From Eledone cirrhosa (taxonomy: Eukaryota), in assembly GCA_964016885.1 (NCBI GenBank), contig OZ024742.1, positions 137,826,001-137,890,000 on the forward strand: 64,000 nucleotides of DNA, read 5' to 3'. This document shows positions 3,281-62,123 of the stretch, piece after piece. Numbering within the stretch: the stretch's first letter is position 1; the number at the start of each line of letters is the position of its first letter. Under the pieces are notes generated by a model that was given only the letters and a program-made list of their open reading frames with translations, did no database searches and had not been told where the DNA came from. The translations under genes and the position numbers were made by a program.

Positions 3281-3579
3281 GTAGATAAATCTACCAAGAG
3301 TTTACGGTAGTGTCCAATCCGTATGAAGAACTCAATGTATTCCGGATATCATGGAAAGAAGAGATGTAATGAAAAACCACTTTCGGTGAAAGATAAACGG
3401 TATACAGAGTCAAGATAAAATACATATATATACACATATATAAACACATATATACCCTAGAAACGATCGTTAAATAATGAACTTTTTTTGTTTAATATAA
3501 GGAATTGTTTATTCATTATTTGTTTAATATTTTATATATATATATATAGAAGGGGTTACACAACAGTTAGTTCACCATA

Positions 3580-3619
3580 CCGAGAACAATTGTTTCACCT
3601 TCGCGGATCTTCAGCTCGG
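3580..3619 (-). ncRNA. Minimal type-I hammerhead ribozyme (inverted copy of 4325-4364)
   Basis: Reverse complement of the motif at 4325-4364. Confidence 0.75.
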
Positions 3620-3644
3620 GATGTGTATGGTTATAGGAACATAA

Positions 3645-4135
3645 AGGCCCAGATCACCAGCAGCCCTAGGAGCAACACCCCACCAGGGTGCTCTTGCCAT
3701 AAGCCTGAAGCTTGCCCCCTTCAACAGCAATGCAACACACCAGCTCTAATCTATGAAGCTGTGGTCACTTCCAACCGACCAAACGAACCACAGGAGGTCA
3801 AATCCTATGTGGGCATGGCGGAGGGCCGATTCAAGGAGCGTTTCCTGAACCACCAGTCTACCTTCAGATACCCGGACACACGTTCATCCACGAAACTCGC
3901 GAGCCACGTATAGTCCTTCAAGGACTCAAGTATAGGCTACTCCATTCAATGGAAAGCCATCACTAAGTCCAAGCCATACGCAAGGGGAAATCCGACGTGT
4001 GGCTTATGTATTGACGAACGAATAACTATCCTAAAGAGATTACGCAATAGTGATTGCCTAAACACGAGAGGTGAATTTTTCACACGTTGTCCACACGTCA
4101 CCAAACATCTATTGCATAACTACAAGGCCCCGGAC
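3645..4135 (+). pseudogene. PLE C-terminal GIY-YIG endonuclease (Hydra-clade-like), with in-frame TAG
   Basis: CSC..CPL...C, IYEAVV...YVGMAEGRFKERFLNHQSTF, TKLASHV*(W)SFK..IQWK, CGLC, CLNTRGEFFTRCPH. Confidence 0.85.
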
Positions 4136-4324
4136 TTATTCTTTGCAATTTTATTTTTAATTTTTAATTTTATTTTTCAACCTAAAAACTTTCCGGACTT
4201 TCGCAGTTATCTCCCTTACACCTCCCACACGCAGTCTAGTATTGCCTGTCTGAAGTGAGTGACCGAGTTTCTGCGCATGCGCGTTCGTACGGTTGTCCTT
4301 CCTGTTCCTATAACCATACACATC

Positions 4325-4364
4325 CCGAGCTGAAGATCCGCGAAGGTGAAACAATTGTTCTCGG
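4325..4364 (+). ncRNA. Minimal type-I hammerhead ribozyme
   Basis: ccgag-CTGAAGA-t.cc.gcgaa.gg.t-GAAA-caattg(palindromic stem III)-TT-ctcgg; stem I extends (ccatac/gtatgg). Confidence 0.75.
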
Positions 4365-4482
4365 TATGGTGAACTAACTGTTGTGTAACCACTTCTACCT
4401 AACTCGTCCCTTCGACTGAGTGCTCTACCACTACGGATATTACCTTCCAGTGTTCCACCACTATATATATATATATAATAGA

Positions 4483-5300
4483 CTAGCAGAAGTACCCAGC
4501 GTTACCCGGGTTGAAGAAATTCATGAAATCTAATTCAACACTTGATATATTTTCTTCATAGTTATTGTCATTGGTGATTCTAATATTATTGGAATAGAAA
4601 ATTGTGTGGTCAACAACAATAATAAATTTGAAATAGAAAGCCGATAAAACTATAATGAAAATTCTGTACATTTTTAAAACACACCCTCGATTTTAGATGG
4701 GAATGATTATTTTTCCTCGGTTTGATTGTGAATTGATCTCCCTGGAAAACGGAAGGAGAAGAGAAGGTGGACACTCGGACTTTTACTCTCCAATGCAGTT
4801 TTCTTTAGAAAAGAAAATTCTTTCATGGTAATCCCTAATCCCAACCTAAACATAAACTTAACTGAAATCTTCCGTTTTACGAACTGGAGACGGATATTTT
4901 TTGGAAAGGGGGCAGCTAATGTAAAATTTCAACAGCTACGTGGTAGATCGACATGCGAGAAATAGCAGTAAAATATTTCCCTTTTCTGAAAAAAAGAATT
5001 GTTTTTGCGTGATTTGTAAGTCAAATCCGTGTTCACGTAATTTGGAAGTCAGATTCATTGCCCTTATGAGACTTGCTTCCAAATTAAGGTTCATTCTATG
5101 CGAGACACAGCACAAGAGAAATACAAACCCTCCATCTCAATATTACTTTTGAAAATCTTAAGAACTGTGAAACAGGTAAAGTAGAAAAATAAATATTCTT
5201 AAAAGACTACAGTTGCATTTTCAATTTCTTTTCCTTATAATTTCTCCCGTGTGGGACATCTTTTTGAAGAACCTCATTTCCTTATATATATATATATATA
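4483..5300 (-). mobile_element. Non-autonomous Helitron-like element
   Basis: Minus-strand 3' end: GC-rich hairpin cccggg..ctggg then CTAG followed by T; other end runs into (TA)n, so the 5' boundary is approximate. Confidence 0.55.
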
Positions 5301-5312
5301 TATGAAAATAAA

Positions 5313-58765: not shown

Positions 58766-58820
58766 ACTGCCTGAAGAGGTCACAGCCAAAGATGGCTGTC
58801 ATTGAAATATATATAGCAGT
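58766..58820 (+). ncRNA. Type-I hammerhead
   Basis: Same fold; palindromic stem III tatata, AUA triplet. Confidence 0.75.
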
Positions 58821-58926
58821 AATAAACGAAGGTAAATTTTAATCATTTGACTTTTATTTAACTTTATTTTATATATATGTGTATATATATATATATATAT
58901 ATATATATATATATATATATATATAT

Positions 58927-59301
58927 ATATATATATGGATGTATATATAATGTATTTTGCAATACACTTTATGCTTAATTAAAAGCATTTTGACCGTAAG
59001 CTATTGTTTTAAAGTAGTGACAAATTCACTCAATTTGATCTCACCAAACAGGGGAGATAAGCCGACAAGACTTGTTTCGCTTTGGTTGAAGCTTATCAAG
59101 GCCAACTACCCCACCTGTTTGCTGAGATCATTGATGTTATATTCTTATAGAAATCTAGTAAATAATCAGGAGCTGATTATGCAGAGCGGTTGTTGGTCAG
59201 GCAGAAATTAAAAATTATAATTGGAGCTCTGAAATAGCAATATATATATGGATGTATATATAATGTATTTTGCAATACACTTTATGCTTAATTAAAAGCA
59301 T
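58927..59301 (-). mobile_element. ~313-bp non-coding HHR unit with terminal direct redundancy (family C)
   Basis: Perfect ~60-bp direct repeat with period 313; homologous to 51259-51642. Confidence 0.75.
59060..59103 (-). ncRNA. Type-I hammerhead with U3-A8 core
   Basis: ggcc-TTGATAA-gctt.caacca.aagc-GAAA-caag.t.cttg-TC-ggct. Confidence 0.78.
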
Positions 59302-59583
59302 CACTATCAACATCACTTTTATTATTATTATTGTTGTTCTTGTTGTTAGTGGTGGTAGTCGACATGGTCGTAGGCGTAGTCATAATAAATAATACCCCTA
59401 AGCATTATTATTGTTCATTTAGCTTGGGTTGGAATTTATCAATAAAATTATTTTCTTTAATTTTTCTCTTGATTTCACTTGGGCTGTGTAGTTTGTAGAA
59501 TGGAAATATTATACAATATGTCGACTACCACCACTAACAACAACAATAACAATAATAATAATAAAAGTGATGCTGATAGTGAT
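59300..59583. repeat. 66-bp inverted repeat
   Basis: Arms 59300-59365 and 59518-59583. Confidence 0.85.
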
Positions 59584-60265
59584 GATTACTGAAGATTTTT
59601 TATAAAAACCCTAGAAACAGCTATTTTCATCATTTCTAAAAATAGCAAAACAATTAATGCTTTGGACAGGGTCAAATATAGGTCGTTAGACATGCTGAAC
59701 GAACCGTGATGCCTAAACCAATCAGCTTTGGTAATCTAGTGAAACCACACACCGATTGGTCGAAATACAGTTTGCGAAACTTAGAATTCTGTAGCCCCTT
59801 TTTACTGTATATATGGCACAAATTTTAGCCATCTCATTACAGTCGAAAATTGCAAACTTGTCTGTCACCACTGAATATGAATCTGAAGATTGCGAAATCA
59901 TGAAAGTACTTGTTTTATTAACATTTAATATTCTACCATACTATTTCATTATAATATTATAATTTTAAAGGATTGTAAATAAAACGAGTAAATCAGACAA
60001 AGTTGGAATTCCTTGTATTAATATATATATATATATATATATATATATATATATATATATATATATATAAACGGAAAAAATGAAACGGAATTTCATTTCC
60101 CACTCTTAATACTTAGAGTGGGAAATGAAATTTCGTTTCATCTTTTTCCGTTTATCGTTTTCGGTGCACCCGGCCGATTAACCCACTCGATATGCAAATT
60201 GGGCCACTCAGCCGTTAATATGCATAAGGTAAGTATATACATTCAACAATCTGGCAGGAAGGTAT

Positions 60266-60308
60266 ACGTTGCTGACGATATCTAATAAGCTTGAAACTAG
60301 TACAGCGT
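60266..60308 (+). ncRNA. Minimal type-I hammerhead
   Basis: acgttg-CTGACGA-t.atct.aata.agct.t-GAAA-ctag-TA-cagcgt. Confidence 0.72.
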
Positions 60309-60689
60309 TCCTTTGTCAGTGTTGAACAAACGAGCAACGGTGGTTGCTGGACACTACGGCTTAATACGGGATGTTTGTTTACAAACACACCGAACATTAT
60401 AATAAATGTTCGGTGAATCCATACGTACGTATATATATATATATGTGCATGTATGTATATATATATACATACTACTGTACGTCTGTATACATATATGTAT
60501 GTACGTGTACATACTTATATTTAAGTAACAGCCGTACTAAGAGTGGGAAATGAAATTTCGTTTAATTTTTTCAGTTTATCGTTTTCGGTGCACCCCGCTG
60601 ATTAACCCACTCGATATCCAAATTGGGCTACTCAACCGTTAATATGCATAAGGTAAGTATATACGTTGAACAATCTGGCAGGAAGGTAT

Positions 60690-60732
60690 ACGTTGATGAC
60701 GATAGCTAATAAGCTTGAAACTACTACAGCGT
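60690..60732 (+). ncRNA. Second hammerhead copy (C3A mutated, stem II perfect)
   Basis: acgttg-ATGACGA-t.agct.aata.agct.t-GAAA-ctac-TA-cagcgt. Confidence 0.6.
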
Positions 60733-62123
60733 TCCTTTGTCAGTGTTGAACAAACGAGCAACGATGGTTGCTGGACACTACGGCTTAATACGGGATGTTT
60801 GTTTACAAACACACCAAGCATTATAATAAATGTTCGATGAATCCATACGTACATATACATATGTGTGCGTGTATGTATATATATATATACATACTACTGT
60901 ACGTCTGTATACATATATGTATGTACGTGTACATACTTATATATATATATATATATATATATATATATATATATATATATATATATACGTGTGTGTATAT
61001 AACTATGTGTATATGAGTATATACATTTTTAGAGTAAATGGAATCTGGTTGCCTACATACATGCAAATATATATTTTTCTACGACAATCTAAATGATCAA
61101 CTACGCCTTCATAAACGTCACATTCTCGCTACATCATCACACCTTTCGTTGTACACATTATTTCTCTATCACCCATTTATCGCAGCTTTGTTTTCTTTCT
61201 ATTTCCTGTTTAATCATCTAATTTTTTTGCTAGAAGAAATTTACTTACTCAGAAGTTACCATCTGTTGTTTTACCATATAATGACTGAATGTTATGTAAG
61301 TCGTTTTACATATCCATCAACATTTGGAATAGTTTTCTCAGATAGTCTTTGATTTATATAAGATCCTTGTTATTTTATGACTATTTATATTTTTGCAATT
61401 TAAGTTCCATTCAAATTTGTTATTGATATTTGATCTCATGGATATTATCAATTGCATATTATCTTTCATGTGTTTAGTTCTATTGTTGCTACTGATCCTA
61501 CAATTACAATCCGATGATGGCTGCAGAATAAACGAATCGTTTGAGTGGCATTGGCCTGAATTTCTTTCTGTATGTATCCCGCCTCAGCCTTCTGAAGTCA
61601 AAAATATATAACTGTATTAAGATATATAATCTCACAATGTCATGAACAATGTTTGGCATTGTATGAAAATTGTTGAACAGTATCTAATAAAAACAGAACA
61701 CATTATTAAAGGGAACAAAAAAGGAAGAAAGAAGAAAAGGAAAGAAATTGAAGGAAGGAAACGAAAAAAGTATCAAGCAGCGAAAGAAAAGAAGGGTGAA
61801 CAGACACTACACCACAATTTTAGTGGTGCCACGATCGCGTCCGGGGACAAAATGGCAAGGATAGTACTGCAAAGAATAGCCAGAGACACGCACTGTAACA
61901 GCCACCTGATATCACAGAGCTTCCTCCTCAAGTGGTCCGCTGTCTTTGCAACTTTACAAACGAAATCAGCTGTGTGTCGACCAAAGACGCAAGAGGTCTT
62001 GACGGAGACCGGTGCAATGAGGAAGAGGTCGGTTAGGCCTCGCTATTTGACAATTCAAGTCATCGACATGCAGTGTATGTATGTATGGCTGGAGCATCTT
62101 TGATCAGATCAATTCTGTCTAAG

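What the first reader, a model, noticed from the sequence alone, without database searches (positions are those of the whole stretch)
3548..60940. 18 hammerhead-like motifs of ~10 sequence types in 64 kb
Seen: type-I HHR topology at 3580, 4325, 22643, 25803, 27838, 31511, 32110, 34045, 34357, 35715, 46167, 51483, 57245, 58539, 58766, 59060, 60266 and 60690. Most have tiny, often palindromic stem III (caattg, ccgg, cgcgcg, ccatgg, tatata, ctag). Established: PLE pseudo-LTRs and animal retrozymes carry minimal HHRs that are thought to cleave as dimers. Inference: this genome may hold a large, diverse ribozyme repertoire, many members with core variants that strict motif searches would miss.
Basis: partly seen in the sequence, partly recalled or inferred. 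Interest (0 to 1): 0.75.

Follow-up and report, generated by a model that had tools for sequence, protein, structure and literature searches.

The report
Retrotransposon hammerheads, some with altered cores
Nearly all of the 18 motifs are hammerhead-ribozyme shapes at the ends of Penelope-like jumping genes and related repeats, of which this genome likely holds several hundred thousand; several young, abundant families carry one or two fixed changes in the normally invariant core that are predicted to slow self-cutting, which would make the role of these ribozymes directly testable.

Summary
Observation confirmed. One (22685) is unconfirmed. Scanner: 11 strong hits versus 0.05 in shuffles. The window is ordinary for this 3.0-Gb genome: 127 hits in 990 kb of spaced samples, roughly 385,000 genome-wide. 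Linked coding regions are Penelope-like (Hydra clade and canonical); one family is a tandem retrozyme. Less expected: the 27923/31517 family has a fixed double core change, U4C+A6U. It is young, nested among canonical-core relatives, and has an 861-aa open-ORF relative. Three more families carry U4+A6 double changes, and a 17,767-match family carries U4A. In 22 sampled families, fixed changes fell only on positions 4 and 6. Such mutants cleave poorly in vitro (PMC9901934), so these are likely slowed cutters. Cleavage and expression are untested. This scan noted similar density, U4 families (same genome) and A6U families (other genomes) before.

The parts
3570..3635 (-). Family F1 hammerhead, inverted 5' copy (core 3614; U-U at base of stem II; cleavage-site nucleotide U)
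3656..4141 (+). Hydra-type linker (CxCx5C) and GIY-YIG endonuclease fragment of the F1 insertion
4310..4372 (+). Family F1 hammerhead at the element 3' end (core 4330)
22640..22695 (-). U3-A8 hammerhead-like motif with weak stem I; probable, unconfirmed
25795..25850 (-). Decayed F1 hammerhead copy (core 25838)
26312..27523 (+). N-terminal half of a DKG-type PLE reverse transcriptase, interrupted by (TA)n and the F2 insertion
27828..27940 (-). Family F2 hammerhead, inverted 5' copy; core 27923 with U4C+A6U; about 60-nt branched stem II
27951..29310 (+). 5'-truncated Hydra-clade ORF of F2 (RT C-terminal part, CxCx5C linker, GIY-YIG), frameshifted
31500..31612 (+). Family F2 hammerhead at the 3' end; core 31517 with U4C+A6U; (TA)n follows at 31648
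32115..32195 (-). Family F3 hammerhead, inverted copy (core 32178)
34040..34125 (+). Family F3 hammerhead (core 34056), 3-bp non-palindromic stem III; no coding link found
34355..34405 (-). Hammerhead (core 34396) about 300 nt downstream of a GIY-YIG fragment on the same strand
34702..34989 (-). GIY-YIG fragment, 55% identical to a canonical-type PLE endonuclease (L177)
35715..35800 (+). Hammerhead with long stem II (core 35727)
46160..46205 (-). Decayed copy (core 46198) of a canonical minimal-hammerhead family (228 candidates)
51480..51545 (+). Decayed U3-A8 copy (core 51487), homologous to the 59099 unit
57240..57340 (-). Decayed copy (core 57329) of family F2b, a canonical-core relative of F2 (1,281 candidates)
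58535..58600 (-). Hammerhead, left arm of a fold-back pair (core 58588)
58760..58825 (+). Hammerhead, right arm of the fold-back pair (core 58771); (TA)n follows
59045..59120 (-). U3-A8 hammerhead with a stable stem III (core 59099); fold z = -4.75
60110..60942 (+). Two 424-bp tandem units of a non-LTR retrozyme family; cores 60272 and 60696 (second decayed)
780..862 (+).
20815..20890 (+). Additional decayed member of the 802 cluster (core 20832)
22060..22165 (-). Additional U3-A8 hammerhead with long stem II (core 22149), 3 copies in sample

Best explanation
The motifs are type-I hammerhead folds at the ends of Penelope-like retrotransposon insertions and of one tandem retrozyme; the canonical ones likely cut their RNA slowly, as dimers or with the element's protein, and the families with fixed changes at core positions 4 and 6 are likely slowed further rather than dead. 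Shown: the folds, the families, their copy numbers, the link to RT and GIY-YIG ORFs for F1, F2, the 34396 and 802 families and the U4A and U4+A6 families outside the window, and the tandem arrays of the 60272 family. Inferred: copying starts near the RNA 3' end just past the hammerhead and inserts into (TA)n, usually stops early and often adds an inverted 5' copy, so each insertion leaves one or two hammerheads; nested insertion makes local pile-ups. Inferred: PLE origin of F3, 35727, 46198, 58588/58771, 59099 and 22149 rests on architecture only. Inferred: because the template for reverse transcription is likely uncut RNA, slow cleavage is tolerated, so positions 4 and 6 can change while the catalytic guanines and the fold are kept.
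For: Enrichment: 11 vs 0.05; 78 in 590 kb vs 1.33 and 49 in 400 kb vs 0; 24 in 200 kb of flanks vs 0.33. Architecture: 31 of 46 same-family pairs within 6 kb point outwards, 6 inwards; (TA)n lies within 60 nt downstream of 43 of 113 hits and upstream of 9. F2: direct repeats 4.9-5.0 kb apart with the double change in both (L170, L194); L194 holds a 661-aa frame between them; an 861-aa open ORF with DKT, CxCx5C and no CCHH at L191 matches the Hydra definition. 393 exact 25-mers with the double change; 64 of the first 100 listed of 1,931 clade matches have C4+U6, 19 C4 only, 15 U4, 2 other, none U6 alone (counted by eye). With core columns dropped, the double-variant group (93/84) nests among canonical-core sisters (97/87) and has short end branches. 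Other double-variant families: U4A+A6U, 2,158 matches, 98 of 100 listed; its U4C+A6U sister with 41 identical 101-mers and two compensatory stem-II changes; F2c. U4A family: 17,767 matches, 100 of 100 listed, 712-aa Hydra ORF. Among 22 credible multi-locus families, 4 have a fixed change at 4 (2 also at 6) and none at 3-8, 5, 9, 12-15.1 or 16.1. Literature: catalytic mutants of an Anolis PLE hammerhead did not affect insertion in vitro and cleavage needed the protein (PMC11167929); U4C keeps a viroid infectious and A6C cleaves weakly (PMC3088659).
Against: No cleavage or expression data. In a pairwise scan of another hammerhead all single and double mutants of the uridine-turn region except the 3-8 swap had low activity and no rescue (PMC9901934), so the double variants may be inactive. 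Only 1 of 8 folded motifs was more stable than its shuffles, and the F2 minimum-energy fold is not the full hammerhead. In the F2-clade alignment 8 of 27 pairs change on both sides, which 130 of 500 shuffles reach; the covariation score (0.196 vs 0.109, 0 of 500) is inflated by 5 F2b rows that are out of register. Sampled hits are not enriched for a PLE ORF upstream on the same strand (15, 15, 16 and 7 of 153 for the four positions). Independent origin of the double change in F2 and F2c is not proven (p-AU 0.127). The 22 families were chosen by me from 36 clusters after dropping 14 that were two-copy, low-complexity or ambiguous; a few of those had apparent changes at 5, 9 or 14. The L191 copy's own inverted hammerhead has a private change at position 4 and its 3' end is interrupted. 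The scanner was tuned on this window.
Confidence: 0.65

Rival explanations
1. The double-variant hammerheads are catalytically dead; the three-way fold is kept only as a binding or initiation signal for the element's RT-endonuclease protein.
For: Low activity and no epistatic rescue for uridine-turn mutants. Cleavage not needed for insertion in vitro. F2 went through at least four successive subfamilies after the change. Naiads were reported to spread without canonical hammerheads.
Against: A binding-only role does not obviously require G5, G8, A9 and G12, which stay fixed in all variant families seen.
Confidence: 0.2
2. The variant cores are neutral decay in source elements; the motif no longer has any role in these families and the rest has simply not had time to drift.
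For: About 0.2 substitutions per site since the change in F2 leaves roughly a 1-in-10 chance that 11 further core positions stay unchanged by luck (my estimate).
Against: Changes recur at the same two of 11 core positions in several families from two PLE clades, and stem II shows compensatory changes between two A6U sister families.
Confidence: 0.1
3. The motifs are a host-exapted regulatory ribozyme repertoire rather than transposon by-products.
For: Very high density means many copies must lie in host transcripts.
Against: Copies decay at core positions (5 of 18 here), sit in (TA)n with inverted partners and belong to high-copy families. No host gene was identified near them.
Confidence: 0.04
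4. The motifs are chance matches of a loose pattern in AT-rich, microsatellite-rich DNA.
For: A very relaxed first pattern gave 21 hits against 6-22 in shuffles; Rfam listed no hammerhead.
Against: Scored scan 11 vs 0.05; families with thousands of exact matches and zero reversed-pattern controls.
Confidence: 0.01

Closest known systems
Minimal type-I hammerheads of metazoan PLE pseudo-LTRs (Cervera and De la Pena 2014, PMC4209133; read parts 1-2 of 4)
   Same: Type-I topology, extra nucleotide between 9 and 10.1, short palindromic stem III, U3-A8 variant, opposite-strand pairs, many families per genome, mostly truncated single copies.
   Different: Density about 128 per Mb here, against about 2,000-9,000 per genome reported there; stem II inserts up to about 100 nt; family-fixed changes at positions 4 and 6 are not mentioned in the parts read.
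Hydra clade of C-terminal EN+ PLEs (Craig et al. 2021, bioRxiv 10.1101/2021.04.23.441226 = PMC8557442; read section 11 and passages)
   Same: DKT motif, CxCx5C linker, no CCHH, (TA)n insertion, hammerheads present (F1, F2, U4A family).
   Different: Described as a small number of short (<3 kb) families; F2 is about 4.9 kb with a 2.2-kb 3' region, and one family here has at least 17,767 copies. Supplements not read.
Metazoan non-LTR retrozymes (Cervera and de la Pena 2020, PMC7229834, passages and section 15; Li et al. bioRxiv 10.64898/2026.07.22.740005, part 1 of 5)
   Same: Non-coding tandem units of a few hundred bases, each with a type-I hammerhead (60272/60696 family: 6,029 matches, 420-430-bp spacing).
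   Different: Circular RNA not tested. The axolotl count of 126,247 motifs is about a third of the estimate here.
Natural hammerhead core variants (Perreault et al. 2011, PMC3088659; section 8 and passages)
   Same: U4C (viroid), A6C (phage), U3-A8 and U10.1-U11.1 are known natural variants with low but detectable activity.
   Different: Those are single changes in rare sequences; here U4C+A6U and U4A+A6U are fixed in families of hundreds to thousands of young copies.
Poseidon PAc hammerhead of Anolis (PMC11167929; passages)
   Same: PLE pseudo-LTR hammerhead; suggests protein-assisted cleavage and an uncut template.
   Different: Canonical core and different clade; nothing here was assayed.

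Membership tests
Type-I hammerhead ribozyme | Three-stem junction closed by stem I, conserved boxes in type-I order | tested here: met
   17 of 18 sites by copy or family
Type-I hammerhead ribozyme | Canonical core (3-8 pair, U4, G5, A6, A9, G12-A15.1, U16.1, H17) | tested here: met
   met for 8 confirmed families plus F2b; F2 is the exception, next row
Type-I hammerhead ribozyme (family F2) | U4 and A6 of the core | tested here: not met
   fixed U4C+A6U; F2 is a hammerhead-derived variant, not a consensus member
Type-I hammerhead ribozyme | Stems supported by covariation | tested here: inconclusive
   86% of cells paired vs 25-41% when slid, but pairs with double changes not above shuffles; visible compensation between families
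Type-I hammerhead ribozyme | Site-specific self-cleavage | not testable with these tools
   no assay; no RNA run to lay
Hydra-clade PLE (F2; U4A family) | DKT motif in place of DKG | tested here: met
   L191, L194, L233
Hydra-clade PLE (F1, F2, U4A family) | CxCx5C linker and C-terminal GIY-YIG without CCHH | tested here: met
   read in translations; Pfam GIY-YIG weak, E 0.003; no Pfam hit for the 861-aa ORF
Hydra-clade PLE | Insertion into (TA)n | tested here: met
Hydra-clade PLE | Placement in an RT phylogeny with reference Hydra elements | not tested
   no reference proteins at hand
EN+ PLE insertion | Pseudo-LTR direct repeats around the ORF and inverted 5'-truncated copy | tested here: met
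   L170, L194, L232, L233; 31 outward vs 6 inward pairs
EN+ PLE insertion (F3, 35727, 46198, 58588/58771, 59099, 22149) | Linked RT/GIY-YIG coding sequence | tested here: inconclusive
   none within 3.5 kb upstream in sampled copies; short stubs or non-autonomous elements
Non-LTR retrozyme (60272/60696) | Non-coding head-to-tail tandem units with one type-I hammerhead each | tested here: met
   dimers to an array with 28 listed matches at multiples of about 428 bp
Non-LTR retrozyme (60272/60696) | Expressed circular RNA monomers | not testable with these tools
   no RNA data for this family

The most novel reading that the evidence does not exclude
Penelope-like elements in this genome have repeatedly evolved a working hammerhead sub-type that drops the uridine-turn residues (U4 to C or A together with A6 to U) while keeping G5, G8, A9 and G12: an RNP-dependent, deliberately slow cutter that the element's own protein switches on, carried by some of the youngest families in a genome with a few hundred thousand hammerheads.
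Probability: 0.3. Interest if true: 0.78.

Novelty: new variant of a known kind. Interest (0 to 1): 0.55.

Why it matters
What PLE hammerheads do in vivo is still open (PMC7761336 and PMC11167929, passages read). This genome offers matched pairs: closely related subfamilies with canonical, single-change and double-change cores, with near-complete ORFs for in vitro assays. They allow a direct test of whether cleavage, or only the fold, matters for retrotransposition. If the double variants cut, the accepted hammerhead consensus and search descriptors miss whole families. The estimated 385,000 motifs would exceed the per-genome counts in the papers I read (largest 126,247, axolotl).

Tried and rejected
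Rfam scan: only microsatellite-driven miRNA matches among the 150 listed. First relaxed regex: not separable from shuffles; replaced by a scored scanner. Generic repeat finder swamped by microsatellites. Idea that the 25838 hammerhead belongs to the 26312 RT rejected: F1 is Hydra-type and that RT is DKG-type. Idea that A6U needs a prior U4 change: fits all families seen here, but unchecked earlier notes report A6U alone in other genomes, so not claimed. Sequencing runs: no RNA holder listed; contigs of two non-RNA runs added nothing on the core in another organism. Same-strand ORF association test uninformative. Genome search for the 22685 motif empty and uninformative. Lunse et al. 2017 (RNA Biol 14:1499) could not be read; I know it from its title in reference lists and from recall, and it may describe position 4/6 variants. 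Supplement of PMC9901934 holds no per-genotype table as text. Supplements of PMC4209133 and Craig et al. were not read and may bear on novelty. Searches that found no paper on these variants or on cephalopod PLE hammerhead counts. Stem-III dimer energies and a genome-sample palindrome tally were not computed.

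
Full report
Setting. The window lies in a 3.0-Gb animal genome, is 36% G+C and microsatellite-rich. A dispersed short repeat resembles an octopus SINE; that label is recalled, not tested. I did not try to identify the sample.

Observation. A first loose pattern did not beat shuffles (21 vs 6-22). A scored scanner requiring core, stems I and II and a stem III gave 11 hits at score 20 or more, against 0.05 in 20 block shuffles. The other nine reader sites were traced by homology. They form 10 families. Three further sites were missed (802, 20832, 22149); 16320 is doubtful. 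Rfam listed no hammerhead. Only 1 of 8 folded motifs beat its shuffles in energy, which is expected for short multi-stem motifs but is no support.

Is the window special? No. Evenly spaced 10-kb samples gave 78 hits in 590 kb (shuffles 1.33) and 49 in 400 kb (shuffles 0); the flanks gave 24 in 200 kb. That is about 128 per Mb, or roughly 385,000 for the genome by extrapolation, against 11 per 64 kb in the window. The 113 strong hits of the first sample fell into 39 clusters.

What carries them. The window holds PLE coding fragments at 3656-4141, 26312-27523, 27951-29310, 34702-34989 and 51787-51960. Four pairs (3614/4330, 27923/31517, 32178/34056, 58588/58771) point outwards, the inverted 5' copy described for PLE insertions; in the sample 31 of 46 pairs do so and 6 point inwards. 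(TA)n follows within 60 nt in 43 of 113 hits and precedes in 9. F1 and F2 show the Hydra-clade linker; F2 relatives also show DKT and no CCHH. The 60272/60696 pair is a 424-bp dimer of a family with 6,029 exact matches in arrays of 420-430-bp period, a non-LTR retrozyme. Against a blanket assignment: most sampled hits have no ORF remnant nearby and the side test was flat, so six families are assigned by architecture only.

The F2 variant. The true core lies at 27923 and 31517, between a stem I with an internal loop and a branched stem II of about 60 nt, and has C at position 4 and U at 6. All 30 best genome matches share it; 393 exact 25-mers carry it. Of the first 100 listed among 1,931 clade matches, 64 have both changes, 19 only C4, 15 the canonical U4, 2 other, and none U6 alone. 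Relatives with canonical cores, including the family of the 57329 site, fix the positional homology. With the core columns removed, the double-variant copies group together (93/84) inside a clade with canonical sisters (97/87), span several successive subfamilies and have short end branches. Full-length units with the change in both repeats exist (L170, L194), as does an 861-aa open ORF (L191, whose own inverted copy has a private change at 4). Pairing in the clade alignment is 86% against 25-41% when slid, but double changes per pair are not above shuffles and F2b rows are out of register.

Recurrence. With all 11 core positions free, 36 multi-locus clusters appeared in 1.19 Mb plus the window; I kept 22 with three or more copies and non-repetitive sequence. 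Four have a fixed change at 4, two of them also at 6; none at the 3-8 pair, 5, 9, 12-15.1 or 16.1. Among the 14 dropped clusters a few had apparent changes at 5, 9 or 14. Genome counts: a U4A Hydra family, 17,767 matches with a 712-aa ORF; a U4A+A6U family of a canonical PLE type, 2,158 matches; its U4C+A6U sister with 41 identical 101-mers and a CCHH-type endonuclease; and F2c, a distant F2 relative with the same double change but different stems I and III. Separate origin in F2 and F2c is suggested, not proven (p-AU 0.127).

Mechanism. Established for PLEs: minimal hammerheads cut weakly and better as dimers (PMC4209133); in Anolis, cleavage needs the protein and is not needed for insertion in vitro (PMC11167929). 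Inferred here: 3'-primed copying with truncation and inversion leaves one or two hammerheads per insertion. Mutants at positions 4 and 6 have low activity (PMC9901934; PMC3088659), yet these families spread. That changes cluster at 4 and 6 while the catalytic guanines stay argues for slowed rather than lost cleavage. The dead-fold and neutral readings remain open.

Novelty. The bulk is a known kind: PLE hammerheads, Hydra elements and retrozymes. The scale and the family-fixed double changes were not found in searches, but Lunse et al. 2017 and several supplements were not seen. Earlier unchecked notes of this scan report a similar density, U4A and U4C families in this genome and A6U families in others; none shown to me named this double-variant family. 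Verdict: new variant of a known kind, interest 0.55.

Noticed in passing
L233:1837-3975 and L232 (G000:C1): Hydra-clade PLE of 3.26 kb with a fixed U4A hammerhead, at least 17,767 exact-pattern copies and a 712-aa ORF.
   Followed up: partly
L300-L320: Very young canonical-type PLE family (41 identical 101-mers) with U4C+A6U core; sister family has U4A+A6U with compensatory stem II.
   Followed up: partly
L280-L299: Family F2c: same double core change as F2, different stems; no ORF within 1.5 kb upstream.
   Followed up: partly
window 9870-12415 and 14338-16263 (minus strand): Two decayed non-LTR retrotransposon copies about 81% alike; RVT_1 hit at 11149-11688.
   Followed up: no
window 5663-7342: Two frames of 210 and 228 aa that look like gag and protease remnants of an LTR retroelement by eye; no Pfam hit.
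   Followed up: no
window 2460-2650, 20940-21070, 23643-23944, 29939-30003, 37821-38019, 39070-39268, 49378-49829, 52839-52967, 62120-62762, 63809-63926: About a dozen copies of a roughly 190-bp SINE-like repeat; the octopus SINE label is recalled.
   Followed up: no
window 43463-43967: 23-24-bp minisatellite, about 21 copies, 98% alike.
   Followed up: no
window 59886-59930 (plus strand): A core-like box, short stem II and palindromic stem III resembling the family at L054/L073 (cluster 34); not scored by the scanner, probably a decayed copy.
   Followed up: no
window 16320-16420: Hammerhead-like fold with a change at position 8; one homolog at L255; uncertain.
   Followed up: partly
L191:6883-9903 and L177:2856-6232: A different PLE with a long asparagine-rich N-terminal insert and DKS motif, inserted into or beside F2 copies.
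   Followed up: no
G000:C1:51772502-51791726: Array of the 424-428-bp retrozyme spanning at least 19 kb.
   Followed up: no
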